Source: Octopus vulgaris
Lineage: Eukaryota
NCBI GenBank assembly: GCA_951406725.2
Contig: OX597821.1
Coordinates: 95,232,001 to 95,296,000 of the forward strand
Length of the DNA stretch: 64,000 nt
Direction: 5' to 3'
In this document: piece by piece, positions 16,075 through 49,710 of the stretch
Position numbering within the stretch: the stretch's first letter is position 1
Layout: every line of letters begins with the position of its first letter
The notes under the pieces: model-generated
Databases searched by the model: none
What the model saw: only the letters and a program-made list of their open reading frames with translations
What the model was told of the DNA's origin: nothing
Made by a program: the position numbers and the translations under genes

Positions 16075-16129
<55 letters not shown>

Positions 16130-18449
16130 TACAGAAATAAAGTGAACAGGTGATGTCACATCACATGAATCAAGTCCTACCTGCAACCATAAAACACCAG
16201 TCTCTTCAATGATGAAAATCAATTCATTCATAACACTGTGTCTCTAACAATCAATACATGAGAGTCATCAGCTTCTATATACACTTAATCAATTAATCAA
16301 TAGAGTGACAGGTAACATCAATTTGTGATGAAGATTATCTGATATATCAGCTATATATATATGTGTGTGTATGTACATATGTGTATACAGGTGAGTGGAC
16401 AAATTAAAGCAAAAGGCACTCAACACATTTAGGAGTTACATATATTATTTAAAGCAGTGTTGCTATATGAAGCCTATGAAACCTGAAGTTGCACCTGGCC
16501 AAATCAAACTGTTTTAAATAATAATGATGATATATATAAATACACAGGTGAGCACATAAATGCAAAATGGAAAAGATATGCTACTGTATCTGTTTTTGCA
16601 GGGTCTTTATGGCCGTATGCCCTTCCTAAAACCAACCACTCTGCAGAATGGAGTCAATGCTTTTTACATGGCACCAGCACATGTGAGGTTAGTTTGGGCA
16701 GGATTTTTGCAGCTGGATGATCTTCCAAATGACAACCACTTAACAGTGTGAACTGGATGCTTTTTACGTGGCACCAGCACTGCCAGGGTCACTAAGTAAC
16801 TCGCAAGACAAGGAATTATGAGAGGGGCAGGTGTATCATCATCATCATCATCATTGTTTAACGTCCGTTTTCCATGCTAGCATGGGTTGGACGGTTCGAC
16901 TGGGGTCTGAGAAGCCAGGAGGCTGTGCCAGTCCCCAGTCTGATTTGGATGCCCTTCCTAATGCCAACCACTCCGTGAGTGTCGTGGGTGCTTTTTACGT
17001 ACCACCGGCATAGGGGCCAGAGGAGGCTGGCAAACGGCCACAATCAGTCGGTGCTTACACCAGTCAGGCGGCGCTGGCATCAGCTACGTTCGGAAGGTGT
17101 TTTTATGTGCCACCAGCACGGATATCTTAACTACAATTTCCATTTGATTTTTATTTTGATGTTGACGTACTTGATTCAATAGGTCTCCTCAAGAACAGCG
17201 GGTCACTCTACGATCCAAGGTTATCACAGCAGGCCGTCCTGCAAACCATGAACTCACCTAGTTTGCCTTCCAACTACATGGTTCTGGATTTAGGTTTTTA
17301 TCCAGTCTGCTGGCTAAGTGTGACATCTATGACCTTTTAATCTCTATTAAACTATATCAGCTAGCAGCCAATTTATGTTTGGCAAGCAGCGACAGTGGAT
17401 ACTTGCTACTGATGAAACCTCAAAAAAGCAGAAATTTGGATTTAGTAATGACATCACTGCTGGTTGATGGATTTTGCCTGTTGTTGATATATTTGTGTTT
17501 TTAACACTATACATCTATAAGGGATGCTTTTTAAAGACAAACACTGCAATTTAGAAGGCTTTCATCAGCACATATGCTTTAAGTATGATACACATATTGC
17601 TAATATGTGTGTGTGAGAGTGAGAAAGAGTTTGTGTTGCCTTGACTTGACATCATATGTTAGTTGTGAATGAATGCCACTGTCATGCAAGTGGTGCCCTT
17701 CATTTCCGATCTTCCATGAAAACATGTCTCCTCATGGGGAAATATTACCTTGCTCAGAAACAAGTGAGTGTTGGCATCAGGAAGGCCATCCAGCCATAGA
17801 AAATCTGCAGCAACATGCACCATCCAACCCATGCTAGCATGGAAAAATGAACATTAAAACAATGACAATGATGGTGATATATGATAATGATATACAGGTG
17901 TGTGTATATGCGTATATATGTACATAAGTATGTAGTTAAGATGTCTGCTTCACAAATACACATTTCTGAGTTCAATTCTAAGCATGGCACCACAGGCAAT
18001 GGTCTTGTGCCATACTTCCAGGTTGATCAATACCGTTTAAGTGGAATTTGTTAGACTGAAACTGAGTGGATGCCTGAAATAAATACATACATGGTTCTGT
18101 GTTTATGTTGTGTCACTGTCTTGTCACTTAGCCAATCGAAAAACAGAAATCAATAAAATAAGTAGCAAATTGAAATAAATACTAGAATCAATATGATTGA
18201 CCGAAGACTTCAAGATGGTGTTCTAACATGGCCACAAACCAGTGTTTTTTTTGGTTTGTTTTTTTTTACTTGTTTCAGTCATTTCACTGCAGCCATGCTG
18301 GAGCACCACCTTTAATCGAGCAAATCGACCCCGGGACTTATTCTTTGTAAGCCTAGAACTTATTCTATCGGTCTCTTTTGCCGAACTGCTAAGTGACGGG
18401 GACATAAATACACCAGCATCGGTTGTCAAGTGACAGTGGGAGGGGACAA

Positions 18450-18484
<35 letters not shown>

Positions 18485-19379
18485 CAACGGGCTTCTTTCA
18501 GTTTCCGTCTACCAAATCTACTCACAAGGCTTTGGTTGGCCCAAGGCTATAGTAGAAGACACTTGCCCAAGGTGCCACACAGTGGGACTGAACCCGGAAC
18601 CATGTGGTTGGTAAGCAACCTACTTACCACACAGCCACTCCTTTGTCGTTTACTTGTCTTAGTCATTAGACTGCAACCATGCTGAGGCACTTGCCTTGAG
18701 GAATGTTTTGCCCAATGAATCAGCCCCAGTTCTTTTTTTAAACCTGGTATTTATTTTATTGGTCTCTTTTGCCAAAACAACTGAATTATAGGGACATAAA
18801 TACACCAATATCCATTGTCAAGCGATGGTGGTGTACAAACACAGACACACACACAAATGCTCTCATGTGGCTAAGAGATGTTTTGACATGTTTACAAAGT
18901 CAGAAAACAACACAGCTCCCGTGACTTTTGGAAACATTTTTTTCACGCTAAGAGTTGCTGACGTATGAAACAAACTGCCGGCATCAGTTGTTAGTTGCCG
19001 GAGCACTGCATCCTTCAAAACTTCCATGCTTCCTGAGATTCGCCAACACTACACCTGATTTTCTCCCCTCCATACACACACAAGCATGTATCTGACTCAT
19101 ACACTGTTCAGTTCCCAGACATTTGTACATTACTGCATATGCTTTATACGCACTTTCTGACAAGTAGTGGTGCACCTGAGCACTGTACACAATAATTTCA
19201 TTCTTATTTTTTATTTATTTCAAGCACCCTCCACCACTTTGTTGCCTTTCGGTTGTAAATTGTGAATAGCCACCTTAATAATTAATAATTCTCACTTTAC
19301 TATTTTCAGAATCAGTCAATGTTTCCTATGGTGTTCTGTATAAGACTGACAGGGTGAGTTTGGTTCTTTAACCCTTGGC

Positions 19380-19444
19380 GACGGAGTATTGGATCGCTGA
19401 TGAAGATTAATTAAATCTGAAATCAGCACTAATATGACTCCATC
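19380..19444 (+). ncRNA. Type I hammerhead ribozyme (copy in the preceding repeat unit; one stem III mismatch)
   Basis: GGAG..TCG-CTGATGA-AGATT(AATTA)AATCT-GAAA-TCAGCACTAA-TA|TGACTCC. Predicted cleavage after 19434. Confidence 0.75.
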
Positions 19445-19731
19445 TCGTTTGTCATTGGGAGGGAGCACGTTTCCCTTCTCAGCCGTTAGAAAAATGCTTT
19501 CACATGGCTAAGAGTTGTTTTGTCTCTCATTTCTAGCAATGCTGGTACTTACTAGCATCATCCGCCACTTTAGTGACAACTAAATTTGTTGCCATGGCTG
19601 TAAATTATGAATACCCACCTTAATAATTTATAATTCTCACTTCACCATTTTTGGAATCAGTCAACGTTTCCTATGGTGTTCTCTATAAGACTAACAAGGT
19701 ATGTCAGGTTCTTTAACCCTCAGCGACAGAG

Positions 19732-19786
19732 TATAAGGTCACTGATGAAGATTAATCAAATCTGAAATCAGCACTGATATGACTCC
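19732..19786 (+). ncRNA. Type I hammerhead ribozyme (intact core)
   Basis: GGTCA-CTGATGA-AGATT(AATCA)AATCT-GAAA-TCA(GCAC)TGA-TA|TGACT. Canonical CUGAUGA/GAAA/UH core with stems I, II and III. Predicted cleavage after 19779. Confidence 0.85.
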
Positions 19787-21817
19787 ATTTCGCTTGCCAT
19801 ACAGAACTTATCTGGACCTTGTCAGTTGTTAGAAAAGTGTTCTCACATGGCTAAGAGTTATTTTGACTCTTATTTCTAGCAAAGCTGGTGCTGACTAGTC
19901 ATGCTGGTGCTCACTTTAGTCAAGACTATATTTGTTGCTTTTCAGTTGTAAACTGCAAATAGCCATTTTAATAAATTTATATATATATACCTGGTGCAGC
20001 CTTCGGGCTTCCCAGACCCCAGTGGAACCGTCCAACCCATGCTAACATGGAAAGTGGACGTTAAACGATGATGATGATGATATATATCAAGATTAATCAG
20101 CCAAAATTGCGAGGATGATCCGGTTCTTGACTGAAGATTGAAGGCTTCGAATGTCCCGTCCGTGTTTTTTGTATCGTCTTCTAAATGTTTTGCGTTCTTG
20201 TCCCAGTTTGTATTTTTTTACATATACATATATATATATATATATAAATGATGGGCTTCTTTTGGTTTCGATCTGCTAAATCCACTCACAAGGCTTTGGG
20301 TGGCCTGAGGCTATAGGAGAAGACACTTGCTCGAGGTGCCATGCACTGGGACTGAACATAGACCATGTGGTTGGGAAGCAAGTGTCTTACCACACTGTGT
20401 AGACTGGCTGGATCAATGGATAGCGGGAGAGAAGGGTGGGTGGATGTATGGATGGACAAGTTGGGTAAATCGAAACACAGGTAGATATGTAGATAGATGT
20501 AGATATTGTTTGTTTAAATTTAATTTACAACAAGCCAACAAGTGAACCTCAATGTAGTTACTAGATCTGCTTGAAATATCAGCTAATTCTCACTCAGGCT
20601 ATATTGGAGACTAACTTGTATCTGAATAAAATATGTGATGGTCATGGATGGAATACATTTAATCATAGGCCTGTTGATCACAGCTGAGCTAAGGATACAT
20701 AACAGCAGTTAAATTTCCTTCAGAGCACACACTATAGACTTAAAAAAAGGATAATGCATATACTAGATATACTATGCTTACTACTATTTTAGAAGGTATT
20801 TATGAAAGTACTGGCATTTGATAACAACCTCTGATTGTGAGAGCTTTTCAATATGTGGCTCTTCTATGCATAACCTGCATCATTTTCTTTCATTTATACA
20901 TGTGTGTGTGTGTGTGTGTGTTTAGGTATAACAAGTACATTACAGAGTGATTGCATTAGCCATTTAATATCACAAAAACTATTACATTTTTTATATTAAA
21001 AAGTGATGAATTTTCTACATCCAGCTGCACAAATATTGGAAATGAATGACGTTGATTTACAACAATCACGCAATATAAACAAGACAAGGAAACAGTCATA
21101 TACTCACATAGACACATCATCATCATCTGTTGTCCATGCTGGCATGGGTTGGACAATTTGACCAGAGCTGACCAACTGGGGAACTGTACCAGACTCCAGT
21201 CTGATTTGGCATCGTTTCTACAGCTGGATGGCCTTCCTAATACTTACCACACAGCCCCTCCTGCACCTATTTATTTTTATTCCTGCTGGATGCTTTTGTG
21301 TGGCACTGCATGGTGTTTTTATGTGGAACTCCATGGAGCTTCTACATGTCACCATAACGAGTGCTTTACACCACTAGAACGATCAGTCTTAACAATTCTG
21401 CTGTAGAGTACGGATTTTCTTGAGTACAGCAAGGCACCAGGCATCTTGGTTCTTCATTATCTCACCTGAAAGATTCAGTGTCCCGAGATTGTTCTTCAGT
21501 ACTTCATCCCATGTCTTCCTGGGTCTCTCACTTCCACGTGTTCCATCCACTTTGAGAGAATGGCACTTCTTTATGGAGCTGTTGGCATCCATCTGCATCA
21601 CATGACCTATCATCATTACCACTAAATCCATTCAGAGGGCCATAGCAGAAGACACTAATTTGCCAAGCAATGGGACTGAACCCAAAACCATATGGTTGGG
21701 AAGCAAACCTCTCAACCACAGAGCCACACCTGTACCTATGTGGAGATAAACACATATCTTACATGCACACACACACATACACACACACACTAAAAACATA
21801 GAACTTGTTTTACTTAC

Positions 21818-21919
21818 TTCAACTTCAGTTGGTAGCTTAGCTTCACTCAAAGATAGCAGCATCTCTGTAAAATTACACAGGTAAGATGTAAATACAGACA
21901 GAGCTTCATTTCTAGAATC
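21818..21919 (-). CDS. C9orf72: C9orf72 coding exon 2 (DSRNEALSVFTSYLCNFTEMLLSLSEAKLPTEVE)
   Basis: TTACAG| acceptor, |GTAAGT donor, 102 nt, phase 0-0. Resembles human VMELLSSMKSHSVPEEID. Confidence 0.88.
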
Positions 21920-32099: not shown

Positions 32100-32675
32100 C
32101 TTCTCAAGAAGTACACGTAATTTACCAACCATCCGGCTAATCCAGCTGTAGATAAGATCGGAGAGGTGGAGAAAATATTCAAGTTGGTCCAACTGTATAA
32201 TCAAAGTGAAGCTATGTAAAGAAAGGCCGTTGGTCCCATTAGCACTGAAAACAAATACAACTGCAGCAACATTTTTGTCCGGAATGGTATGGATGCGCCA
32301 ATCAGTAATACTGCTGCTTAAGTCCCGACATAGTTCTCCAGCTAAACCTTGCTTACAGATCTGCAGAAGGGTGCTTTGATCGAGCAGAAGAGCCTCACCA
32401 TTGAACCACACTTGCTCAACTCGAGGTCCAAGGATGTTGTCCCAGTGACTGAACACAAATGTTGAGACAAGGATCTGTGCGCTGTCCACAAGCTGTGACA
32501 CTGTATATTTGGAACAAGGACTCAGTAATGTGGAAGCAATTGGGTCCAGTTGTTTGCTTTGGTCAGAGGGATAAAGGAGATTTTGTGGTGGGGATAAGTG
32601 AGAAGAATGTGAATGGTCAGGTTTGATTTTCATACTTGAAATGTAAGAGTCATTTTTGTTAGCTTGGGTCTCCAT
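32100..32675 (-). CDS. C9orf72: C9orf72 orthologue (DENN-like/longin, SMCR8 partner), first coding exon (192 codons)
   Basis: ATG at 32675 in ideal context ACCATGG. TFVFSHWDNILGPRVEQVW matches human TFAYWDNILGPRVRHIW as recalled. Exon ends RMVGKLRVLLEK at a phase-0 donor AAG|GTAAGC, aligned with human HIIRKGRIWMHK. Confidence 0.93.
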
Positions 32676-33024
32676 GGTAATGGATGAAGCTAAAATTTTA
32701 ACTTTCTTATTAAAACGTTTATAGTGTATCACCTAATTTTATCTCTATTTGAATTAATTTCGAATTATCTTCCATTATACACATAAATATAAATATAATC
32801 CAGATAGAATAAGACCAATATTCACATACAAAAACATATATATATATTTATATCTAAAGAGAGAGAAAGAACATATGTATGTGTGTACCAAGCATCAATA
32901 CATATGCATTAGTAAATACTAAAACAAACTGCTCCAATTAACTTAATTGTAATTTTTTACTTGTGAAGACACAAATAAAATATGGATGGAAGGGGATTAG
33001 GTTGCCAGAACAGATGACCAACTT

Positions 33025-33291
33025 TCAAGATTGAAAGTATATCATGGGCAGTTCATTACGTACATGTAGCACTTGGACAATGTAGCTGGCCAGAAACATG
33101 TTGGCTATAACAAAAGCTGCAGCTAAGAGCATCAGTGATGCCGACCAGTTGATATTTGGGGAGAGGTCCTGCGTTAGGTAGAGGAGAAAAATCATGAAAC
33201 TGGCAACTACGACAAGCAAGAAGGCATAATTAACAAGCAGGATGATGACTTTGTCACGGCTGACAACCTCTGTAATCCAGTCAAGCTTCAT
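33025..33291 (-). CDS. Putative 88-aa two-transmembrane microprotein (ORF2), about 350 nt upstream of the C9orf72 ATG
   Basis: MKLDWITEVVSRDKVIILLVNYAFLLVVVASFMIFLLYLTQDLSPNINWSASLMLLAAAFVIANMFLASYIVQVLHVRNELPMIYFQS has two hydrophobic segments. Non-repetitive sequence with coding-like composition, downstream of a strong acceptor (TTCTCTTTTCTTTCTTCCAG|33400). Confidence 0.6.
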   Translation of the reverse strand: MKLDWITEVVSRDKVIILLVNYAFLLVVVASFMIFLLYLTQDLSPNINWSASLMLLAAAFVIANMFLASYIVQVLHVRNELPMIYFQS

Positions 33292-33735
33292 TGGAACCTG
33301 CTCCTGACAGGGGGTTGACAAAATATATTCAACGTCTCCAGACTTTTCAACACTTTCAAGATTCTCTGTCACAAGTCTTTCATAACATCATGTGATAGAA
33401 CTGGAAGAAAGAAAAGAGAAAAACAAACAGATTAAATTCACGAGAAATTCAATATTCATAATACATAAATACATATTATATAATCAGCACAAGTTACAGA
33501 GTGACTGAAGGGTTCAGATTCTTGCATTGGCACTTACCAAACTGGTTTCAAATTATGGGGATTACATAATTTGATTGTTCTTGAATAAATTATATATGTA
33601 AAGTGTGCTCAGTGACATGAATTTGAACAGAAACAAAGAGATATTCTAAATACTTAAGATAAATTCTTAACTTACTAACACCATTTGTATATATTTTATA
33701 TACTTCTTTCCATTTGATTTTTATTTTGATGTTGA

Positions 33736-33739
<4 letters not shown>

Positions 33740-33775
<36 letters not shown>

Positions 33776-34060
33776 CATATACATATATATATATACACAC
33801 ATATATATATACACACACACATATATACACACACACACATATACACACACACATATATATATACACACACACACATATACACACACACATATATATACAC
33901 ACACACACATATATATATACACACACACACATATATATATATACATACACATATATATATATACACATATATATATACACACACACATATATATATATAT
34001 ACACACACACATATATACATACACATATACATACATATATATACACACACACACACACAC
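33740..34060. repeat. Compound (TA)/(CA) microsatellite (similar tracts at about 400-472, 15985-16127, 54545-54932 and 58615-58677)
   Basis: Direct inspection. Confidence 0.95.
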
Positions 34061-35394
34061 GTAACTACTTGGACTTTATGTATATGTCTATGAGTATGTC
34101 AATTAAAGGACATTCACTGTTTGGGCTACCTGATGTCAGCCACCGGAATGATATAATTTTCACAGGACCTACGTCATTACATCAGGAAATACGTAATGTC
34201 TGTTGAGTTTATAGTTGATAAAGGAAACAAACGGAAGATGGATTTAGTACAAATCCATCCTTAAAGATTCATATTAAATCCATCTTCCATTTCCTTTATC
34301 AGCTATATATATATATATGTGTATGTATGTATATGTAAAGGGAAAGTTTACGAAAATAAACAAAAGACGAAGGCAGGTGGAGTACAAACAAACAAATGTA
34401 TTAGTATAGCGCTCAGGAATAGAAATAGAAAAAGTCTTTTACGTTTCGAGCCTACGCTCTGCGACAGAAAGATACACAGAAAAAAACAAGGAGAGAAAAA
34501 AAGAAGAGAAAAAAGGAGAGAAAAAAAGAGGGAGAGAAACAAGGAGAGAAAAAAGGAGAAAAAATGTGTGTAGGAGCTAACGATCTATCATGTATTTACT
34601 GACACATATATATGTAAAGACATATATGCATGCCTACATGTGTGTGTGTTTCACAAACAACTTAGTCATGACTCATGGGAAAGACGAATTCTTTCCATAA
34701 TATCTTAAGCATCTCATAGCAAGATAGAATCACTAACACCAAAGTGTTGCAGATAGTACAACTGCCAAGCTCGAAGTCAGTCTCATGTCAGCAACAATTA
34801 CAATGTCAAATGTAATGAAAGACAACAACATTCCGAAACAGTTGTTCCTCAGCATCTGTGGCAATCAGAAGAATTTACACACATGATGGTGAGTCTGAGA
34901 GTTCGGGATGGTGTTTTTCTGAGTGTGTGTGTGTGTCTATATGTGTACAGTGTGAAGCTGAAAACAATATACAAGGCAAATGATGTGGAACTAGCAGTAG
35001 AACTGTTATTTATAAAGGTAAAGTTACCTTCTTGAATTATGCCAACTCACAGGGGTCAGTTTCCCAGTTTCATGGCATATATATTCCGCCCCTGGATGGG
35101 ATGCCAGTCTGTCGCAGTATTACTCACTTTTGCCAGTTGAGTGGGCTGAAGCAATGTGAAACGAAGTGCTTTGCTCAAGAACACAACGCACCACCCAGTT
35201 CAGGAACTGAAACCACAATCTTACGATCATGAGTCCATCACCCTAACCACTAAGCCATGTGCCTCCACTAAAAGCAACTTTGAACTACCATAAGTGATAT
35301 GTTGGTGAGAGAGGCAGAGGTGAATAGTGAGGGAGAGTGGTACTTACTACTTTTACACAGATATCATTTTGAGAATTAAGATGGAATAATATAT

Positions 35395-35618
35395 ATGATG
35401 GAGTGTGGAAAAGTTCCTGGCTTTAAGCATATTGCGAAAGGCTTGGTTGGCAGACCAACCTTCCAAGTTCTTTTACGAGGCTTAGAAAAGCTGATGGACT
35501 GCTGCAATAATAAGTGTGTGAATCTGAGGTGTGAATATGTTGGATAAAATCATAATTAACTAATCCTCCTATATTTTCTTTTACCCAAAGCCAGGACCTT
35601 TTCAACACACCCTTGTAC
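35395..35618. mobile_element. Degenerate mariner-like MITE (related remnant at about 58010-58085)
   Basis: GTGTGGAAAAGTTCCTGGCTTT ... AAAGCCAGGACCTTTTCAACACAC inverted ends. Confidence 0.5.
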
Positions 35619-35934
35619 ATATGTAAGGTAAATATGATGGTAACAGTTTAACTTTTGCTTCATTCTTCAAGAGCTGATCATGGCAACAATATACAAACAC
35701 ACACAAATACATGTGTGTGTGCGTGTATATATATATATATATAAGAAGGGATGATATTATTAAAATATCATCATGGAGTGACAAGCGAATTATCAGCCAC
35801 ACAGGCAAATTAATAAAATATATACATACATTGTAAGATATGTACTTATATATATATACACATATACACGAGGGCACTACATGAGCACCTACATCTCTAA
35901 AAATAGAAGTCAGTGCTCATGTAGTGCCCTCGTA

Positions 35935-35995
<61 letters not shown>

Positions 35996-36169
35996 AAAAT
36001 TAAGTTCAAAGAGAACAATTCAAACTTTTTGAAGGATCCAAAAGGAGAGAAAAAATAATTTCCAATAAAAAAATTCATCATATTCATAAAAATCAACCAG
36101 AGCAATTTTGATTTTAACATATTTTCTCCATTTTTATACTTGTTTGTGGTACTTTTATACCTATAACGA

Positions 36170-36214
<45 letters not shown>

Positions 36215-36228
36215 TACATATCTTATAA

Positions 36229-36266
<38 letters not shown>

Positions 36267-39200
36267 ACAAGTATACCAGTGTCACAGCGATGGAACAGGA
36301 TGTGAGTTTTTGATTTAAAAGTGGAGGGTAGTATCAAATTTAGACCAAAGTCCACAAAGATAAATTAATTTGGGTCTCATTATCTTTTATCTTTTATAGA
36401 ATCCTTCCTTTTCGTGTTCTTTACTTTGTTCAATGTATTGGACAATTTTCAGCATAAATTACAAAACAAATATAAATTATAATTAATTTGAGTCACAGTT
36501 ACCAATTCATTGGACACCTCTAAAACGCATATATAACCAAGACCACATGATTCTGACTCAGTGTTTGCTCACAAGTCATAGAGAATGGCTGCGTCTTCTT
36601 GTAAATCTCAGAGAGCTAAGTAAATTGGTATTTTTTTACCAAGTGTTAGCAAAATTTTTTTTATCCATGCCAAAAATTAAGCATATTGAATATTGAATTC
36701 TTGAAAAATTTACTCAATGTGTGTTATTTACCTGTATTTTGGTATAAATAAAAAATAAAAATTTCAAAATAGTTTTACTTTTTTTTATCAGTGATTGAAG
36801 GGGTTAAAGTGAGTTAGTGTTGGTGGAGGGAGGGAAAGAAGAGACCGGAATAGATCAGTTGCCAGTAACAACCATTTTGACCCCTGTATGAAGCTCAGCT
36901 GGAAGTCAGTAGCCAAAGACATCATCATCATCATCGTGGAAGAAGTAGACCCAGAAAGACATGGGATATCACAGTGAAGCATGATCCTCAAAAGTTGGGC
37001 CTCACAGAGGCAATGACAAGCAACCGAGACCTTTGGTGATATGCCTTGCTTGAGAAGGCTCATCAAGCCAAATGAAATCATAGTTCTGGCTGATGCTGGT
37101 ATCAGGTAACCGGCACCCATGCCAGTAGCACATAAAAAAGCATCCATTACACTCTTGGAGTGGTTAGTGTTAGAAAGGGCATCCAGCTGTAGAAACCAGG
37201 CCAAATCCGACTGGAACTTGGTGCAGCTCTCTGGCTTACCTGTTCCAGTCAAACTGTCTAATCCATGCCAGCATGGAAAGCAGATGCTAAATGATGATGA
37301 TGATGATGATAATGATGATGACTTTTTCAATGCTCACATGGCCCAGACAGAATTTGTTGAGGCAAATTTTCTACAACTGGATGCACCCTTCCTGTTAGCT
37401 ACACTTTCAAGTTTCCAAGTAATGTAATATTTCCTCGTGACCGGAAATGTTTTCACAGAAGATTGAGAACAAAAGACACTTTGCATGACAGTGATGTCAA
37501 GGCAAGGAGACAGTAACACTCACACACACATAAATTAGAGAAGAACCACCATGTAGCAATTCAACAATGATATACTTAAATCATACTATATAGTAAAAAA
37601 TTAAAGATATGATAAAATATTTACATAAAACTCAATAAAGTACGAAATAATAAATAAATAGTATATAATTAGTAAATAGACTACATGTGTAGTAATGTAT
37701 ATCATCATCATCGTTTAACGTCCGTTTTCCATGCTAGCATGGGTTGGACGGTTCGACTGGGGTCTGGGAAGCCAGAAGGCTGCGCCAGGCCCAGTCTGAT
37801 CTGACAGTGTTTCTACAGCTGGATGCCCTTTCTAACGCCAACCACTCCGTGAGTGTGTATATATAAATATATAATGTATATCATATATATATATATATGT
37901 GATGGGTTTCTTTCAGATTCCCATCAACAAAATAAAAATCACAAGGCTTTGGTTGGCCTGGGGCTATAGTAGAAGACACTGTCCCTAAGTGCCAAGGAGT
38001 GGGACTGAAGCCAAAATAATGTGGTTAGGAAGCAAACTTCTTACTAAACAGCCACATCTCACAAAATCCTGAACTCATTAAGCACAAGTATCAAGCCAGA
38101 AAAGGATAAGATATGTGATTGTACATATAAGATAAAACATCCTTCCAAAGCATTGCTTACATGATTAGGGCTTCTCTCCTATTTCTTTACTACCCACAAG
38201 GGGCCAAACACAGAGAGGACAAACAAGGACAGACACACGGATTAAGTCGATTACATCGACCCCAGTGTGTAACTGGTACTTATCTAATCGACCCCGAAAG
38301 GATGAAAGGCAAAGTCAACCTCGGCGGAATTTGAACTCAGAACGTAACAGCAGACGAAATACGGCTACGCATTTCGCCTGGCATGCTAACGTTTCTGCCA
38401 GCTCGCCGCCTTTAGGGCCTCTCTCCTATCTGATGACAGACCTCAAGAAATGTTTTCTACTAACACCCATTGGCACCGAGTGGGACCAAGCAACAGAAAG
38501 TATTGTTAGCATCTATATATATCAAGAAATGAACAAGAGAGTCTCTACATGTTTATACAACTGGCTGAAAATAGTAACCAAATCTCCATTATGCCTGTGT
38601 TATTGTCATAACCAGGAACTAAAACAGAAAACAGGATATGCTAAGATGAAACAAGAGAACAGGCAAATGACGAACATAATGAGAATAATAGCCTTTCCAA
38701 ATTTAGACTTGGTGCTCTCGTAAGTCAAGTGTTACAGTTAATAAGACTGTTTCATATAATTTCCTCAGTATGTTACATCACATTTATTACAGACATGCAT
38801 ATAGTTCAGCAGATAGCACAAACTATATTGCTTAAGGGGAAAAAATATACTACAAGGTAACCTGGCAAGGATGCATTATGGAAGCCAAGTGAATTAATTA
38901 TATATAAGTAAATGTTATACAAGTGAACTACTGCTACCTTCATCAACAGTGATGAGGTGTAAAGCAAAATTTACTTCACTATATGACTAGAATAATTGAA
39001 AGCATTTAATTAACTTCATGAAAGTGGTAATAATATTAAAATAATAATAATGGGATGGGCTACTTGACTGGAAGAAAATTCTAACTGGGCCCCACCTGCA
39101 AGGTCATGTGTTTTTTATCTTGATATGACATCACCATATCATGCACATATAGTTGTGATGTACCCTTATCACAGAAGTAGTCATGATGGCTATATTGGGC

Positions 39201-39277
39201 TTTGTATATCTGTACTCCAGTGTCATTTTGATGGCATGCACTGTTCTCTCACTCAATAATAATGATAACAATAAATA

Positions 39278-39636
39278 ACAAGAGCACTCAGAGAGCACAA
39301 ACCTCTGCCAAGGCAGCACCAATGTCCTCTCAACGATTAGTCGGAGATGATTTTTAAAATGAGAATATCTGAAATAAACTTGACTGCTCTCACAAAGAAG
39401 GATACTAAAAATGAACCCAACCATTCTCAAAAATTAAGTAAAAAAAAAACAAGAAAAATGATCCAGAATCTTTCTCCGATAACGGATCGATCCTAAAATC
39501 TAATCAGTTCATGCCAGTCATGAGGCCAAACATCACTGAAAGTTTCTTCCGAATCCATCCAGCGGTTCTTGAGATATCTTGTCCACAGACAAACAAACAC
39601 GACTGAAAACAATACCTCCACCTTCACTCAAGCAGA

Positions 39637-39641
<5 letters not shown>
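39278..39641 (+). mobile_element. Non-autonomous Helentron/DINE-like element
   Basis: 5' ACCTCTGCC, internal ACAGACAAACAAAC microsatellite, and 3' hairpin TACCTCCACCTT..AAGCAGAGGTA. Confidence 0.5.
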
Positions 39642-39667
<26 letters not shown>

Positions 39668-39672
39668 GTAAT

Positions 39673-39990
39673 AAAAGATGAAATCACAAGAATGTGGTCA
39701 ATGAGAGAGTAACTGTCATCCCAGTAGTTGTAGGGTCACACAGAGCACTAACAACCAAGTTCAAGAAATATGTCAGAGAAATTGGAATTGACACGAGGGA
39801 AAGGATGCCCAAAAGACTGCTCTATTAGAGACAGCTAAGGTTTTGAGATTGATACTTGGGTGTTGAGTATCTTCCATGAAACTTCACACCTAGGTACCAA
39901 GTCTTATAATTTGGGGAAAGAGACTCTGTGAGACCTTTAGCAACAGGATGCTGTCCATTCTCACAGAATCAACCAGAGCAAGTAAAATAT
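39673..39990 (+). mobile_element. 3' fragment of an R4/Dong-like (restriction-like endonuclease) non-LTR element adjacent to (TAA)n
   Basis: Frameshifted KDEITRMW..VTVIPVVVG..QKTALLETAKVLR resembles the RLE C-terminus; directly preceded by (AAT)n. Confidence 0.55.
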
Positions 39991-40235
39991 AATACTGGCA
40001 GAAACGTTAGCAGGCCAGGCGAAATGCGTAGCTGTATTTCGTCTGCCGTTACGTTCTGAGTTCAAATTCCGCCGAGGTCGACTTTGCCTTTCAGGGTCGA
40101 TAAATTAAGTACCAGTTACGCACTGGGGTCAATAAAATCGACTTAATGCTTTGTCCCCTCTATGTTTAGCCTCTTGTAGGTAATAAAGAAAAATAAATAA
40201 TAGTAATAGTAATAATAATAGTGATAATAATAGTA

Positions 40236-40266
<31 letters not shown>

Positions 40267-40833
40267 TGATAATAATAATAATAACCCTTTTTATTATAAG
40301 CACAAAGCCTGAAATTTGGTGGGAGAAGGTTAGTCGATTTCATCAACACATGCTGAACTGGTACTTACTTCATCAACCCCAAAAGGACAAAATCCATAAT
40401 GACCTCTTACCTTAAAGTTCATCCTATCATCTTAAAAAAGAAGAGCATTTTGGATAATACAATCCTTTATACAAGGTCTGCAAAAATAAAAATAAAGAAA
40501 AGACTGGAGTGGCTGGAACACATCTAAACCAAAGACCTGTAGGATTAGGCTTCACATGGAACTGAACGAAACTAGATATACTATATATTACATATGCATT
40601 TTTTATACTCTTTCTCTTTTACTTGTTTCAGTCATTTGACTGCGGCCATGCTGGAGCACCACCTTTAATTGAGCAACTCGAACCCGGGACTTATTCTTTG
40701 GAAGCCTAGTACTTATTCTATCAGTCTCTTTTGCCGAACCACTAAGTTATGGGGATGTAAACACAGCACCATCGGTTGTCAAGCGATGTTAGGGGTGGGG
40801 GAACAAACACAGACACACAAACCTATACACACG

Positions 40834-40864
<31 letters not shown>

Positions 40865-42633
40865 ATATATATGATGGACTTCTTTCAGTGTCCGTCTACC
40901 AAATCCACTAACAAGGTTTTGGTCGGCCCGAGGCTATAGTAGAAGACACTTGCCCAAGGTGCCACACAGTGGGACTGAACCTGGAACCATGTGGTTGGTA
41001 AGCAAGCTACTTACCACACAGCCACTCCTGATGTTCAGTTTTATACTTCAATACTTGTGGCAAGCTACTGAAAGGGATTAATTGAATAAAATACCTGTTC
41101 CTCTTTAACATTTAATAAATAAAATATACACGCAAATAAATAAATAAAATATACAATTTATAAATGGATATTTAAACTATGTAGATTCCTACTCCGTATT
41201 CTGTGAACTAAGCAACTTGTTAGTGTTTCTGCAGATATGCAGACACAGTGGAAGTATTATAGCTCAGCTAAGTAAATGTCATGCTAGTTTAACTCTTGAA
41301 ATTCAGACAGTGAAAGTACTAGGGCAGGGTGATACAGACACTGCTTATTATATTAATTGATATGGGAAGTAGACACCAACAAAGTGTTTCTAAAGTGGTC
41401 ATTTGAGCCACTAGCAATACTAGTAAAATCTCTAGTCCTAGATATAGGATGTCTGAAAACAGTACAGGATGGTCATAGCTGGAACAAGTTTCATCAAAGC
41501 CTGGATATATTATGTCTCATCTTTTATCTTTTCCTTGTTTCAGCTGTGAGACTGCGGCCATGCTGGGGCACCACCTTGAAGAATTTTAATCAAATTAATA
41601 AACTCCAGTCCTTATGTTTCTTTTTTTTTTTTTAAGTCTGGTACTTATTCTATCAAGCTATTTTGCTGAACTGCTAAGTTACAGGGACAGAAACACATCA
41701 ACACTGGTTGTCAAGCAGTGGGGGTGGGGACAAACAGACACAAAGACACACACACACATGGTGAGCTGGCAGAACCATTAGCACGCCGGGCGAAATGCGT
41801 AACCATATTTCGTCTGCCGTTACGTTCTGTGTTCAAATTCCGCCGAGGTCGACTTTAACTTTCATCCTTTCGGGGTCAATAAATTAAGTACCTGTTACGC
41901 CCCGGGGTCGATGTAATCGACTTAAATTCGTTTGTCTGTCCTTGTTTGTCCCCTCTGTGTTTAGTCCCTTGTGGGTAATAAAGAAACATATATATATATA
42001 TATATATATACATAATATATCTTTATAAGCAAACCTGAAAGGCTTTGCGAGTTACAGAGAGAAAGCTACTATGGAAGGCTCATAGTATAATAACTGTATA
42101 TCATATATGTCATAATGATATTTATTCTCCGATTTGAAATGAGAATTTTTAAATATAAACAAATGATGAGCTAACCTCAGGCTAAATCAAACTCACAAAT
42201 CGATGCTTTCATGGCTCCTTGTGTATCTGATTGGCCAAACGATTACCCATCAATTTCAGTCAAATTTAGTTAATATACACATAAACTGTCTTGATACTAC
42301 ATAAGTAATATTTTTGTAAGCAAACCCAAAAGGCTTTGCGAGTTACAGAGAGAAAGCTACTATGGACGGCTCATAGTATAATAATTGCATATAATATATA
42401 TCATAATGATATTTATTCTCCGATTTGAAGCGACAATTTTTAAATGTATGTATGTATGTATGTATGTATGCACACACAACAGGCTCCTTTCAGTTTCCAT
42501 CTGCCAAATCCACACACAAAGCTTTGGTCAGCCCAAGGCTATAGTAGAAGACACTTGCTAAAGGTACCACACAGTGGGACTGAACCCAGAGCTATATGGT
42601 TGGAGAACAAACTTACCACACAGCCACACCATA

Positions 42634-43490
42634 TACAGGGTGCAGTGAATAAACTGTCGCCTAAATTACACAACAATGAAAATAACACTGACACCTCATT
42701 TTAACAGAAATATTTACCCAAATTACAGAAAAAGATCTTGAAATACTAAAGAGTAAATTTATTCAATAAAATTGCCATTGGCTTCAACCACGGCCTCCAG
42801 ATGATTTCGGAATCTCCTGCAACTCCTCTCAACAGTCTCCTTGTTTAAGTTGGTGAATGCTGCCATAATCCTTGCCTTCAGTTCAGTTCAACGAGGAGTT
42901 TTGTTGGTCTCTTACTCAACTGCACCCCACACATAATAATTAAGGGAGTTGCAGTCTGAGGAGTTAGGTGGCCAAATGTTAGAGGTGATGTGGTCACAGA
43001 AATTGTCTGACAGCCATGAATGGGTTCTCCTGCTTGTGTGGCATGGTGCAGAGTCCTGTTGCCAGACATAGGGTCTCCCAGCAGCCACCCTCTTGACCCA
43101 GGGCAGTACTACCTCCTCCAGGCATTTGATGTAGGCCTCTGTGTTGAGTTTAAAGCCATATGAGAAGATGAATAGAGGCATAATATTGCCATCACTAGTG
43201 ATCACTCCAAACACCATGATGTTAACTGACTGTGATTTTTATCACTCTCAGTACATGTCCTCAGAGTGACACCCAAATACTCTGAAATGTTCATATTGGA
43301 GCTTCTGGTGTGAATGCCAAGCAGTACAACATGTCACTTCTAAATTTCTGGCAGAGTGAATTGTGTCATGGTGCTGTTTTTCTTACAGACAGTGCCCAAC
43401 TGACTCTACTATACTGTGTAGTTGACAAAATCAAAAACAAACAATGTGCATATGTGAAATTAAAAATATAAAATGGCAATACCATCACAC
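42634..43490 (-). mobile_element. Decayed, internally deleted Tc1/mariner-superfamily element of the DD37D (maT) type
   Basis: ORF 42912-43217: QQDSAPCHT...WPPNSSDCNSLNYYVWG, with 37 residues between the second D and the mutated (N) third position. TACAGGGTG terminus. Confidence 0.75.
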
Positions 43491-44577
43491 AGAGTGGGAA
43501 TTTATTATTTTTGGACTTTTTCCCCAAATGTTTAAAATGCATATTTTCTGGTTCTCTAAACTCTAAAGATTACAAAGCAAACAACCTGAGTTTAAAATAA
43601 TGTACCGTTCAATTTTTATAGTTCTTTAACAATTTAACAAAAGTTATATATTTTTCTTTAGTATAAGACTGAATATATTTTTGTTCACAAAAAAGATTTT
43701 TAATCTGTTTGAACTTATCTAGAAGCATTTTTTATTGTCTTTCAGTCAAGCTACAGACTAGAGTGCACAGGCCAACATAAATTTGAGAAAATAGGTGATG
43801 CATGAAAAATATCCAAATTTTTGTTAAACTCCCTCAAACTTGATAATTTTTTTTAAAAATGACAAATTTTGAAATATTAAGGGCTAACATATTTGACATC
43901 CTGAACATTTTATGTAAACTGTGGGAAAAAATCAGTCCAAAGGAGTTAAGCGGCCACACACAAACTATAATTCCAATTTAGGTACCAAACATCAAAACCA
44001 ACCAAAATTGGGTAAGATCGATAGTTACTGACCCCCAATGCACTTTTTATTGGTATTTAGCCTATTTTACAGGGTAAAAATCTGATTAGAAAGGTCAGAT
44101 TCTGGCTTGGAGGATTTTGCCTTGCTTATCCCAAAATTGAAGAAGGACCAAAACATGAGATAACAAAAAGAAAATATTCCCAACAAATCCCTGGTTTGAA
44201 ACTTTACCATAGTCTACCCCACCCCCCAAAAAAGGAAAAAATACAATGAAAACCGTCTCCCCCTATGATTCAAAAAGAAAATCAGAATTATTTGCACTAA
44301 ATTGTAAAAACTGATCACTTATTCAGAAATATTAAATTTCTAAATGTCTCAAGGAGACATGAGCAGTGGTGGAGCGTAAGAGTGGTTGTACACTGTCAAC
44401 TTAACGTGACAGTCCCGTATGGGAATTACACCACCACTGTTTAGCCCTAGGAAGCATCAAACCACAACAAATATTGAAACAACAGTGCCAAGCAATAAAT
44501 ATGCGTAACTTGGACCAGTCAGTAATATAGTGATTCAATTCTTGATTGTTCTTCTGTCAAAGCAGACACCTTCTTAC

Positions 44578-44758
44578 GTTTTGAAGAACAAGCTGAACAA
44601 CTTGGGCTGGGACATTTCGAAGCAATTGTTGTATGCAACATGATGGACATTCTTCTGAAGATGCAATGGATGCTATCCTTGATTGAAAGCTGATGAGATC
44701 TTGCAGATAATCATTTTTAACTGCAATACACCAAAAAGGCAATTTTGGTCGATATGCC
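44578..44758 (-). CDS. Putative internal exon of a 75-aa upstream ORF (ORF1): (R)AYRPKLPFWCIAVKNDYLQDLISFQSRIASIASSEECPSCCIQQLLRNVPAQVVQLVLQN
   Basis: Poly-T tract then ATCAG| acceptor, AAC|GTAAGA donor, 181 nt, phase 2-0. Joins in frame to exon 1 (MDEPLFIS+AG) and to 33400 (FYHMML-stop). A unique-looking, more GC-rich island among repeats. Confidence 0.5.
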
Positions 44759-47700
44759 CTGATTTGGTTATTTGAACCATAAACAAAGAAAAAAATTAAT
44801 AATTTTGGTTCCAGCTGTTAGCCCTTAAAATTGTGGCTCAAATGAGTCCTCAACCACTATCAGGTGATTATTTTAACCCGAGATGTGAATTTCTTCCAGA
44901 ATTAGCCAATCTGGACACAATGTGCATCGCACCCAGTATATATTTTCAGGTTCAGTCCTACTGTGCAGCACCTGGGCAAATGTCCTCTCCTATACCTCCA
45001 GGTCAACCAAAGCTTTGTGAATAGACTTAGTGGACAGAAACCAGTCATATACATATATGTACATAAGTGCTGGTTCCACATAAAATGCACCCAGTTCATT
45101 TCGTAAAGTAAGTTGGCATTGGGAAGGGCATCCATCTATCAAAACCATGCCAAAACAGTCAGTGAAGTCTTCTAACTTCTAACTTACCAGAAAATCTATG
45201 ATTCACTGTGGAGGTTTCATAAGATCAAAACATGCCTGGAGTTGTCTTAATCAGGCTTGCTGAAATTAGTCTATGGCTAATAATAATATTAATCTTTAAT
45301 TGTTGTTATTTCTTTTCACTGCCAAATTAACCATCCCTAGTATTTTATATTCTCTGCATTAAATATATCAACACCTCAACACTTGAATATACTTAAATCA
45401 TACACACAAACACACATGTAAATGTTTAACCATCCAACCTATGACAGCAGAGAAGACGGACATTAAATGATGATGTAGAAGGGGTAGACCTAAGAAGAGA
45501 ACATGTAGAAGTAGTAGACCCAGGAAAATGCGAGACAAAGTGGTGAGAAAGGACTCACAGAAGGGATGACAGGGGATTGAGACAACTGGCAGTTTGCTGT
45601 GCTTGAAAAGATATGTGAAGCTAAGTAAAAGCATGGTTGCCCTTACAATCCCCTCCTGCTGAGTACCCCCTAATCATAAGTACTGGTGCCATGTAAAAAG
45701 CAACTGTATCAGTGCTGATTAAAAGCACCCAGTACACTCTGTAAAGTGGTTGACTTAAGAAGGGTATCCAGCTGTAGAAACCATAGGAAAACAGACATGG
45801 AGCTTGAAAAGCTCTTCAGCTGATCAGTTTCTGTCAAACTGTCCAACCTATGCCAGCATGCAAAATGGATGTTAAATGTTGATGAAGATGTTTACATATG
45901 TGGGTGGGTGTCTTTGTCTTGATATCACATGATGGTTGTAAGCAAGAGCCATTTATTTCCGATCTTCCGTAAAAAATATGGGAAATATTAGCTTACAGGA
46001 AGAACATCCAACTGTAGAGAATTTGCCTCATTGAATTCCATCTGACCATGCAAGCATGGAAAAGTAGACGTTAAAACAATGATGTTAATATATATAATTA
46101 CATATAATCATTAAGATATAATATACTTGATGATCATGACCAAAATATTTACTACAAGCCAACTCTGGAGTCTTTATGTTGTTGCTTGACTTGCCAGAAA
46201 TAGCAACTAAATGTACCTCAACTCACATTTTACTGCTTTAAAAAGGTAAAAAAAAGAAAAGCCTGTGACAAATGTAGTCCTAATTAAAGAAAGAAAAGTT
46301 ACAGATGGTCGATCAAGACTAACTTTTTTATCTTAAAAAATTCTTCAGTATTTTCAAAATTGATTGAAACAATGGGCCCCTGATTCAACAGAAATACACT
46401 ACAAATACAGTAACAAAAGGATGGCAGTTTCTTATAGACATCAAGTTGAGCAGGTACGTGTAGAAAATGTTGACAGGCATGGCTGTGTGATAAGAAATTT
46501 GTTCCCTAACCACATGGTTCCAGACTCAGTCCCACTGCAAGACACCTTAGACTTCTACTATAGTCTTAGGCTTACCAAAGCCTTGTGAGTGGATTTAGTA
46601 GAAAGAAACTGAAAGAAGCCTATTATACAGGTGTATATGTCACTGCATCTGTGTTTGTCTCCCACCACCACTTGACAACTGGTGTTGGTGTGTTTACATC
46701 CTAATAACTTAGCGGTTTGGCAAAAAAAACCGAGCTTTGAAAAATAAGTATTGGAGTCAATTCAATTAAAATTCTTCAAGACAGTGCCCCAGCATGGCCA
46801 CAGTCCAATAACTAAAACAAGATAAAAGATACCAAGAAAGGTGATTTTGATATGTTTTTAAAATTGTTAAAATGGTACTTCTTCAATGAAATTGCTTCAA
46901 TTTTAAGATAGTCTCATATCAAGTTGCTGGTTAGACAAGTACAACTCCAAATTTAAATTATTGTACATCTACATAGAGACTCTATTATCACTGCTTTTAC
47001 CATATACCAGAAAATCTATGATTCACTGAGGAGGTTTCATAAGATCAAAACATGCCTGGAGTTGTCTTAAGCAGGCTTGCTGAAATTAGTCTATGGCTAA
47101 TAATAATATTAATCTTTAATTGTTGTTTTTTCTCTTCACTGCCAAATTAACCATTTCTAGTATTTTATATTCTCTGCATTAAATATATCAACAACACCTC
47201 AACACTTGAATATACCTTAAATCATACACACAAACACACGTGTAAATGTTTAACGATACATACACAAATGTTATTATTTAGCTTAAGAGTGATGGTTTGG
47301 TGTAATGTTAGAGCGATGGGCAAACTAGTTTGTAGTATTTAGTTACAGACCTTTACACTCTGAGTTCAAATCCTGACAAAGTCAATTTTGACTTGCATCC
47401 CTCCGGGATCGATAAAATAATGTTCTAGTAATCGACTAACTGCCCTCTTCTCAAAACTGTTGGTACCTGAATTACAGTCATTAAATTTAAAGAAATAGTG
47501 TCCATAACTGTTTCAGGCAGTGCCACATAAACACAAACATGCAACACATATATACACTTATTATAGGGTTGAGACTGGCCTTATGTGTTTAAAACAGAGT
47601 TTGAAAAGCTGTTGTTAACTTAAATACTAATCATGTAATAGTCCAGTGTAGTATCTCTCTCTCTCTCTTTTACTTGTTTCAGTCATTTGACTGCGACCAT

Positions 47701-48898
47701 GCTGGAGCACCGCCTTTAATCGAGCAACTCGACCCCGGGACTTATTCTTTTGTAAGCCCAGTACTTATTCTATCGGTCTCTCTTTTGCCGAACCGCTAAG
47801 TGACGGGGACGTAAACACACCAGCATCGGTTGTCAAGCAATGCTAGGGGGACAAACACAGACACACAAACACACACACGCATATATATACACATATATAC
47901 GACGGGCTTCTTTCAGTTTCCGTCTACCAAATCCACTCACAAGGCATTGGTCGGCCCGGGGCTATAACAGAAGACACTTGCCCAAGATGCCACGCAGTGG
48001 GACTGAACCCAGAACCATGTGGTTGGTTAGCAAGCTACTTACCACACAGCCACTCCTGCGCCTATATATATGTATTTATTAATATGGATGAACATATGGA
48101 AGGCGGCCCGAGGCTATAGTAAAAGGTGCCACGCAGTAGGACTGAACCCGGAACCATGTGGTTTGTAAACAAGCTACTTACCACTTAGCCACTCCTGCGC
48201 CTAGTATGATAATATATATTTTGCTGTAGTACTAAAGTCTAACTATAAAAATAAACTCTAGCGTAAAAAATGTGACACTATAATCCTTTTTAAGAATGCA
48301 ACAAGTGTGTGCATGTACGAACGAGATTAAGAGCCGGAGATGAGTAAACAGGATGGAAGTTGCTGTTTAGTTCGTGGTCAACCTTGATACAGAAGAGCGA
48401 TGGTCAAAGGCATTTCAGCTGTGATCGTCTAGACTTAAGTTCAAATAATGCATGTAGCACAACACTATACAAAGTGTCCTTAGTTTGTTTGCTTAGTGTG
48501 ATAGGAGGGAGATTAGGTGGCTGTTTCTTGCAGGTTAAGTAACCAGGTATGAAACTCACCAATAAACTCATACATGGGTTATTCTACCAGCTCAAGTGTA
48601 GATGTGGAGAAGATACAAGAAGAAGAAAAAAAGGAATAGAGATTGGGAGAGAGAGATAAAAATAAAAAAAGGGGGAGGAAGAGACAGAAAGGGGATGAAA
48701 AATTGTTAATAACAGGGAGTGCGATTTCTGAAAAAATAGAGAGACTTATAGGAAGGAGAGAGAGACGTATAGGGAAAAAAGAATGATGTTGAATGATGAG
48801 AGATAGAATGACAAAATGATAGTGGAAAAGTCGAGGGACAAATATGGACAGAGGGGAGCAAAATGTAGTGAGAAAGAGAGAAAAAGATGAGATGAGAG

Positions 48899-49234
48899 GG
48901 CGATCTTTCGTCTCTAGTAGACCTTTCCGTCGATTTCCGTAAAAAAAATTTTTTTTTTTTTTACATATGGGCTTGCGGGAACTTTTGAAGTAACGAGAGC
49001 GAAAGAGACTAAGAGAAAGCGATTGTATGACGAGGGAAGTTCTTTTGAAGTTACCGTGCATGGGAAGCATTGATGTACATGTGTGTGTGTGTGTTTGATG
49101 GGGTGTGGGAGACAGACAGTATGTTGTGTAAGTGAAGTGCTTCTGTTAGTGTGTGTGTGAAGAGACAGAGAGAGAGTCCATGCACGGTAACTTCAAAAGA
49201 ACTTCCCTCGTCATACATGAGACGAAAGATCGCC
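48899..49234. mobile_element. GGCGATC-terminal MITE with 8-bp TSD GATGAGAG
   Basis: GGCGATCTTTCGTCTC ... GAGACGAAAGATCGCC, with GATGAGAG at 48891-48898 and 49235-49242. Confidence 0.8.
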
Positions 49235-49420
49235 GATGAGAGATATAGATAAGTATAAACACAAAACAGAAAAAGAAGAGCGAATGAAGTCACGGTTGGA
49301 ACGGTGAGAACGGGGTGGAAACGTAAACAGAAAGAATGAGAGAGACATGCTAATGAATTATGGAAAGAAAAACAGTGTGGTCCGACTTTTTAGATCAGAA
49401 AAATGTGAATTCAACCGTAC

Positions 49421-49600
49421 CTGGAGATAAACAGTGGCTCGTCCATCGAGTAAAAAATGCTGTCTGAATTCACTGTTGACTGATTCCACGAATATGTCAA
49501 ACAAGCATGTGACTCACAAAACAACATAAGATGAAAAACAAGCGAAAACGGTGAAAGAGAATGAGTAAGTGATTCGTGCATGTAAATAAATGGTCTTCTA
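49421..49600 (-). other. Putative first exon of the locus, with ATG at 49446 (MDEPLFIS); 5' end approximate
   Basis: CAG|GTACGG donor at 49421/49420. T-rich UTR-like sequence directly downstream of a CpG/ETS-rich promoter-like patch. Confidence 0.5.
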
Positions 49601-49710
49601 AGAGCCGTGCCTGTCCAACACAAGTTGATTCGTTCGTCACTTCCGGTTCGGTCTCGTTCGAACGTAACCGGATTTTCCTGCAACATCCGCTTTTGACGAA
49701 TTACTTCAAC
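49600..49710 (-). promoter_or_regulatory. Candidate housekeeping-type promoter
   Basis: Local CpG enrichment against a CpG-poor background; ETS/GABP consensus CCGGAAGT on the minus strand at 49639-49646. Confidence 0.5.

What the first reader, a model, noticed from the sequence alone, without database searches (positions are those of the whole stretch)
32675..49446. Possible polycistronic C9orf72 transcript: spliced 75-aa ORF1, then 88-aa 2-TM ORF2, then C9orf72
Seen: exon 1 (ATG 49446, phase-2 donor 49421), exon 44758-44578 (phase 2-0) and the acceptor at 33400 join into MDEPLFISRAYRPKLPFWCIAVKNDYLQDLISFQSRIASIASSEECPSCCIQQLLRNVPAQVVQLVLQNFYHMML-stop (33380). All three frames close within about 30 nt of the 33400 acceptor. 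ORF2 then starts 88 nt later, and C9orf72 starts about 350 nt after the ORF2 stop. I saw no AATAAA or ATTAAA between ORF2 and the C9orf72 ATG, and no other promoter-like patch closer to C9orf72. Established: bicistronic animal mRNAs exist (e.g. SNURF-SNRPN, PREY-PIGY) but are rare. Inference: two unannotated microproteins are co-transcribed with C9orf72 and may regulate its translation.
Basis: partly seen in the sequence, partly recalled or inferred. Interest (0 to 1): 0.82.

Follow-up and report, generated by a model that had tools for sequence, protein, structure and literature searches.

The report
Ancient microprotein shares C9orf72's mRNA
In octopus, a small unnamed membrane protein conserved in snails and tubeworms lies in the same exon as the start of C9orf72 (the ALS/dementia gene) and is likely made from the same messenger RNA, a rare two-protein arrangement in animals.

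Summary
The finding is half right. ORF2 (33291-33025, 88 aa, two hydrophobic helices) is a real conserved gene. It has homologues in another octopus (98%), gastropods (32-35%) and, more weakly, tubeworms (27%), and no named family. All 4 variants seen in it are synonymous. In 3 of 4 runs from four studies, one contig of 2.35-2.46 kb covers exon 33400-32100 unbroken (ORF2, 349-nt spacer, C9orf72 codons 1-192). It leaves the genome at both splice sites, and its 3' remainder fits the rest of the C9orf72 coding sequence. In the snail Nucella the two genes carry consecutive locus tags. The 75-aa ORF1 is not supported. Its middle exon (44758-44578) lies in an interspersed repeat. All four runs show a 5-base overhang that fits exon 1 joined directly to 33400 and excludes that middle exon, which reduces ORF1 to a 12-codon uORF. 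Best reading: a bicistronic, not tricistronic, mRNA of the SLC35A4/STREMI kind, with C9orf72 likely translated at low, uORF-limited efficiency. Not shown: single molecules, translation, or what the microprotein does.

The parts
49421..49613 (-). Exon 1 (shared first exon; 5' end approximate), CpG-rich and single-copy; a CCGGAAGT motif (ETS-type by recall) lies just upstream near 49645
   Evidence: Donor CAG|GTACGG; 5' contig remainders of 150-188 nt imply ends at 49575-49613 if joined here (inferred); CpG o/e 1.33; single copy
49421..49446 (-). First part of uORF1: ATG 49446, 12 codons when spliced to 33400, stop at 33390-33388, in frame with ORF2; ATGs at 49581 and 49527 share this stop
   Evidence: join computed from coordinates; junction inferred from the 5-base overhang in 4 of 4 runs
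43596..44924 (.).
   Evidence: 27 other genomic matches at 74-89%; extent from two copies; junction test
32100..33400 (-). Exon 2, 1,301 nt: mini-uORFs, ORF2, spacer and C9orf72 codons 1-192
   Evidence: Single contigs 32099-33405 in X1, X7, X8; three pieces in X5; no cover at 31924-32025 or 33556-33730; acceptor 19/19 pyrimidines
33025..33291 (-). ORF2: 88-aa conserved microprotein, predicted two-helix membrane hairpin; start codon in weak context
   Evidence: Homologues; 4 of 4 variants synonymous; hydropathy; model pLDDT 70.5, helices 3-43 and 49-83; single copy
32676..33024 (-). 349-nt A/T-rich spacer (26% GC) with 8 ATGs, 7 in weak context; one strong-context 18-codon uORF at 32775-32719
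32100..32675 (-). C9orf72 first coding segment (codons 1-192), ATG in ACCATGG context
   Evidence: 192/192 identical to P0033, named C9orf72-like in Octopus; human C9orf72 chain E 7.6e-13; Pfam PF15019 below cut-off for this piece alone
1707..21919 (-). Further C9orf72 coding exons at about 21919-21815, 12603-12475, 9535-9416, 7132-6935, 5614-5555 and 1832-1707; the last coding exon lies about 5.8-6.0 kb beyond window position 1
   Evidence: Exact chaining of the 498-aa P0033 on the window plus L008

Best explanation
Shown: exon continuity and its splice boundaries, conservation of ORF2, repeat origin of 44758-44578. Inferred: ribosomes meet a 12-codon uORF and three 2-4-codon uORFs, and reinitiate at or scan to ORF2's weak start (the main product). 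A minority would leak or reinitiate past ORF2 and the mostly weak spacer ATGs to the strong C9orf72 start about 920 nt from the cap. C9orf72 output would then be low, coupled to ORF2 and possibly raised under eIF2alpha stress, as for human SLC35A4/STREMI. No exon junction lies between the ORF2 stop and the C9orf72 start, so translation of C9orf72 would clear the downstream junction marks and protect the mRNA from nonsense-mediated decay.
For: Single contigs over the whole exon in 3 of 4 runs (3 studies, 2 coded organisms), bounded by the AG at 33400 and the GT at 32099, with no cover at 31924-32025 or 33556-33730. Their 3' remainders of 968-1038 nt equal the 921 nt of remaining C9orf72 CDS plus 47-117 nt. 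Overhang of 5 bases = exon-1 end. ORF2 homologues keep the M-x-x-D-W start in octopus, gastropods and an unnamed group. In a close octopus relative both proteins are on 3 contigs, longest 1792. 4 of 4 ORF2 variants are synonymous (P about 0.003-0.012). ORF2 is 92% identical between Nucella and Littorina, against 67% for C9orf72 between Nucella and Pomacea. ORF2 start weak, C9orf72 start strong, 1 of 8 spacer ATGs non-weak against 4.6 expected (P 0.035, noticed post hoc). The spacer is CpG-poor.
Against: Contigs are not molecules: overlapping separate mRNAs would merge, and the tool warns of this. The runs are 'RNA?' by the tool's guess. X5 is broken at 32886-32932 and around 32736-32766. The exon-1 junction is inferred from 5 bases; the loose-end and joint tables were cut (850 and 88 rows not shown). 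23 ATGs precede the C9orf72 start, 15 of them after the ORF2 start, and the spacer count is not depleted (8 against 8.25 expected), which is unlike the algal leaky-scanning loci. Nucella linkage rests on tags only (strand, distance and transcript not seen); linkage in Littorina, Pomacea and annelids is untested. No translation data.
Confidence: 0.7

Rival explanations
1. Two tightly packed monocistronic genes: the ORF2 mRNA ends at a variant poly(A) signal in the spacer, and the C9orf72 mRNA starts in or near the spacer (or splices from exon 1 to the AG before 32689); overlap or read-through merges them in assemblies.
For: Variant poly(A) hexamers and two TATAAA in the spacer, and an AG 14 nt before the C9orf72 ATG; it would remove the problem of 23 upstream ATGs; contigs cannot show starts or ends.
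Against: Contigs do not break at 32689 in any of 4 runs, and X5's C9orf72 contig begins upstream at 32766. That acceptor has 6 of 19 pyrimidines. The spacer is CpG-depleted like gene body (o/e 0.33) and TATAAA is near chance (2 seen, 0.65 expected). No intron lies between the ORFs.
Confidence: 0.2
2. The first reader's tricistronic mRNA with a 75-aa spliced ORF1 is the functional form.
For: The join is in frame and has GT-AG ends; both repeat copies examined match the peptide at 72-78% without stops, one across a frameshift, so occasional inclusion of this repeat exon is possible.
Against: 0 of 4 runs fit the 44578 donor; weak acceptor; repeat origin; no homologue (lengths 33-105 aa only).
Confidence: 0.04
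3. An operon resolved by spliced-leader trans-splicing at the TTTTAG just before the C9orf72 ATG.
For: An acceptor-like TTTTAG ends 14 nt before the ATG after an A/T-rich spacer; a short leader could be pruned as a tip in assembly (own knowledge).
Against: Contigs run through the site in 4 of 4 runs. My one search listing showed no paper reporting spliced leaders in cephalopods; a passage states they are absent in the annelid Dimorphilus, 'similar to other annelids' (PMC7854359).
Confidence: 0.03
4. uORF1 and ORF2 form one longer protein through read-through or A-to-I editing of the single in-frame TGA at 33390-33388.
For: uORF1 is in frame with ORF2 and the 32 codons between them are open; homologue P0014 has an in-frame N-terminal extension; cephalopods edit heavily (own knowledge).
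Against: No changed letter at 33388-33390 in 4 runs (contigs drop rare variants); similarity starts at the ORF2 Met; the extensions are not alike.
Confidence: 0.03

Closest known systems
Human SLC35A4 / STREMI bicistronic mRNA (PMC13303939; passages and section 11 read)
   Same: A conserved microprotein of about 100 aa is encoded upstream of an unrelated main ORF, with further upstream ATGs in the leader; there the uORF represses the main ORF and stress relieves it.
   Different: No sequence relation was tested or seen; different partner gene; translation, localisation and stress response are shown there and untested here.
PYURF-PIGY, MIURF-MIEF1, ASDURF-ASNSD1, SNURF-SNRPN, LASS1-GDF1 (named in passages of PMC13303939 and PMC3951408)
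   Same: Two separate ORFs on one spliced animal mRNA; junction layout compatible with escape from nonsense-mediated decay.
   Different: C9orf72 does not occur in the main text of PMC13303939 (0 hits; its Dataset EV1 not read). Here the pairing is seen in molluscs and the small protein matches no Pfam family or PDB sequence.
Green-algal bicistronic loci translated by leaky scanning (PMC11291117; abstract and passages read)
   Same: Short first ORF with a weak start, long second ORF with a strong start, spacer of a few hundred nt.
   Different: ATGs before the second ORF are under-represented there; here they are not fewer than chance, only mostly weak.
C9orf72 (C9orf72-SMCR8-WDR41 complex)
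   Same: The downstream ORF is a clear orthologue.
   Different: No vertebrate homologue of ORF2 was found, and no such upstream cistron appears in the paper listings seen.

Membership tests
Animal bicistronic mRNA with uORF-encoded microprotein (STREMI/PYURF type) | Two non-overlapping ORFs, each with its own start and stop, in exonic sequence | tested here: met
Animal bicistronic mRNA with uORF-encoded microprotein (STREMI/PYURF type) | Both proteins conserved, under purifying selection | tested here: met
   ORF2 homologues in octopus, gastropods and annelids; 4 of 4 ORF2 and 2 of 2 C9orf72 variants synonymous
Animal bicistronic mRNA with uORF-encoded microprotein (STREMI/PYURF type) | Both ORFs on the same RNA molecule as the predominant form | tested here: inconclusive
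   Unbroken spliced contigs in 3 of 4 runs, but contigs are not molecules
Animal bicistronic mRNA with uORF-encoded microprotein (STREMI/PYURF type) | Ribosome occupancy or peptides for both ORFs | not testable with these tools
   No ribosome-profiling or proteomic data available
Animal bicistronic mRNA with uORF-encoded microprotein (STREMI/PYURF type) | Exon junctions covered by the ORFs (NMD-immune layout, PMC3951408) | tested here: met
   No junction between the ORF2 stop and the C9orf72 ATG; later junctions lie in the C9orf72 CDS; the first junction lies upstream of ORF2; 3' UTR introns not checked
Leaky-scanning bicistronic locus (green-algal type) | Weak start context on the first ORF, strong on the second | tested here: met
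   33291: -3 C, +4 A; 32675: -3 A, +4 G (vertebrate-type Kozak rule recalled, octopus consensus not derived)
Leaky-scanning bicistronic locus (green-algal type) | Under-representation of ATGs before the second ORF | tested here: not met
   8 spacer ATGs against 8.25 expected and 7 more inside ORF2; only their contexts are weak
Trans-spliced operon | Spliced leader added at the downstream gene's acceptor | tested here: inconclusive
   Contigs run through 32689; loose-end table cut; short tips may be pruned
Any named small membrane-protein family (Pfam or PDB) for ORF2 | Significant profile or fold match | tested here: inconclusive
   No Pfam match near cut-off in 23 members; PDB profile best E 0.77; fold searches give only generic helical hairpins
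C9orf72 | Sequence homology over the full length | tested here: met
   All 498 aa of P0033 chain exactly onto 8 exons; human C9orf72 match; PF15019 over cut-off on two exons

The most novel reading that the evidence does not exclude
Since at least the cephalopod-gastropod split (over 500 million years, own knowledge), lophotrochozoans have kept an undescribed two-pass membrane microprotein on the same mRNA as C9orf72 because the two work together: the microprotein sets C9orf72 translation in cis and acts in the same lysosome or trafficking pathway, perhaps as a membrane cofactor that vertebrates lost or changed beyond recognition.
Probability: 0.2. Interest if true: 0.8.

Novelty: new member of a known kind. 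Interest (0 to 1): 0.58.

Why it matters
Bicistronic mRNAs with two conserved proteins are rare in animals (14 passed the filters in human, PMC13303939), and my searches listed none for cephalopods. This one adds an undescribed, deeply conserved microprotein family, and it ties that family to C9orf72, whose normal function and dosage matter in ALS/FTD. It gives a directly testable case of translational dosage control of C9orf72 and a candidate partner. It also shows a conserved gene that exists only as a 'hypothetical protein' in a few snail and worm annotations; no named octopus record for it was returned.

Tried and rejected
75-aa ORF1: rejected; a search for longer proteins containing it was not run. 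Pfam, PDB sequence, ESM Atlas (twice) and fold searches named no family for ORF2; for an 88-aa helical hairpin (pTM 0.39) this shows neither a new fold nor absence of kin. ORF2 with C9orf72 complex prediction: no answer, score 0.00; no evidence either way. No run is on record as RNA; RNA status is read from the splice-bounded contigs. A paralogue search of the genome by profile was not possible; the single-protein search found one copy. Linkage in Littorina, Pomacea, Lamellibrachia and Ridgeia could not be checked: their C9orf72 or ORF2 records were not both returned, and the paper search for the Ridgeia tags found none. Earlier scan findings: 3 look-ups, nothing. Paper searches that showed no report of this locus, listings only. 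The supplement of the animal conserved-uORF survey PMC7530721 could not be read and might bear on novelty.

Full report
Observation. The coordinates and counts hold. The stated three-piece join gives 75 codons. ORF2 runs 33291-33025 (88 aa) and the C9orf72 ATG lies 350 nt further on, at 32675. The downstream gene is C9orf72: the first segment is 192/192 identical to P0033, an Octopus protein named C9orf72-like; it matches human C9orf72 (E 7.6e-13); and all 498 residues chain exactly onto eight exons, the last beyond the window. The missing AATAAA/ATTAAA says little, since 27% of shuffles lack it too.

ORF2 is a real gene. A search of 1.84 billion representatives gave 5 hits at E <= 0.001: 98%, 38%, 35%, 33% and 27% identical. 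Their clusters hold 22 proteins, of which four are named records, all hypothetical proteins: Nucella, Littorina, Lamellibrachia and Ridgeia. The annelid link is the weakest (E 3.3e-4). Similarity begins at the ORF2 methionine (M-x-x-D-W in 12 of 14 aligned rows) and 11 columns are invariant. Two hydrophobic stretches are kept, and the model is a helical hairpin of modest confidence (pLDDT 70.5). All four variants seen in ORF2 across the runs are synonymous, where 23% of possible changes (33% of transitions) are; P about 0.003-0.012 on a small sample. No family could be named. The genome holds one copy.

One exon, probably one mRNA. Twenty of 24 listed runs hold 74-97% of the sampled words of 32100-33420; none is on record as RNA. 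I laid 4 of them, from four studies and two coded organisms, on 30700-33730. In X1, X7 and X8 one contig (2463, 2424, 2348 nt) covers 32099-33405; X5 has three pieces with a gap at 32887-32931. The contigs leave the genome at the GT donor and the AG acceptor, and there is no cover at 31924-32025 or 33556-33730, so they are spliced RNA. Their 3' remainders (968-1038 nt) equal the remaining 921 nt of C9orf72 coding sequence plus 47-117 nt. None breaks at the weak acceptor before 32689 (6 of 19 pyrimidines). The limit is real: a contig across two genes does not show a single molecule.

ORF1 fails. All four runs align five bases past the acceptor, to 33405. Four other places upstream in the window also fit the pattern searched (55701, 55171 and two GC-type sites), but exon 1 is single-copy and CpG-rich, and the 5' remainders of 150-188 nt in three runs would place the start at 49575-49613. 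The junction is therefore inferred, not read. The middle exon sits inside a repeat of about 1.3 kb with 27 further matches, has a poor acceptor and no homologue. With the direct join, the ATG at 49446 opens only 12 codons, in frame with ORF2.

The pairing is old. In a close octopus relative both proteins are recorded on 3 contigs, longest 1792 nt, probably the same genomic contigs. A Pomacea-type record reads into an intron at the same position as the octopus exon end (P0048). This is adjacency by label in one snail; strand, distance and co-transcription there were not seen, and the other taxa were not testable.

How it likely works. The ORF2 start is weak and the C9orf72 start is strong. Twenty-three ATGs precede C9orf72 on a 918-nt leader. 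They are not fewer than chance in the spacer (8 against 8.25), but 7 of 8 are in weak context (P 0.035, noticed after the fact). Plain leaky scanning of the algal type (PMC11291117, abstract and passages) therefore fits only in part. The nearer model is human SLC35A4, where an upstream microprotein ORF and further ATGs hold the main ORF low until stress (PMC13303939, section 11 read). I infer that ORF2 is the main product and that C9orf72 is made at low efficiency by leak and reinitiation. The junction layout fits the NMD-immune pattern described for human bicistronic genes (PMC3951408, passages). None of the translation steps is shown, and the function of ORF2 is unknown; a shared pathway with C9orf72 is a guess from linkage.

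Verdict. A probable bicistronic gene (0.7), with overlapping separate mRNAs as the main rival (0.2). It is a new member of a known but rare kind, with an undescribed conserved microprotein. Five literature searches listed no report of it (listings only), and one relevant supplement was unreadable. Interest 0.58.

Noticed in passing
window 25320-29113 (ORF 28434-26272, - strand): Apparently intact, young hAT DNA transposon in a C9orf72 intron: 720-codon open frame with DUF4371 and hAT dimerisation domains, short terminal inverted repeats between TA runs, and 39 other copies at 97-100% identity among the 40 of 185 candidates scored; possibly still active.
   Followed up: partly
window 33390-33388: A single TGA separates uORF1 from 32 open codons in frame with ORF2; an unnamed homologue (P0014) has an in-frame N-terminal extension, and P0006/P0016 suggest an acceptor about 30 codons before the ORF2 start, as in octopus. 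No editing seen in 4 runs.
   Followed up: partly
proteins P0007, P0020, P0022, P0023: These gastropod ORF2 versions differ before residue 9, which suggests an intron after codon 8 in gastropods; octopus ORF2 has none.
   Followed up: no
window 48900-49220, 1088-1517, 51912-52164: Fold-back repeat in intron 1 next to exon 1, with 92-97% copies elsewhere in the window.
   Followed up: no
window 42912-43238 (-); L006 1486-1695: A transposase-like fragment (Tc1/mariner type by recall) lies next to the repeat that holds the rejected exon; another copy of that repeat keeps a zinc-knuckle-like remnant in a different frame from ORF1.
   Followed up: no
window 9535-9416: This C9orf72 exon is skipped in the 457-aa isoform X2 record P0026.
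   Followed up: no
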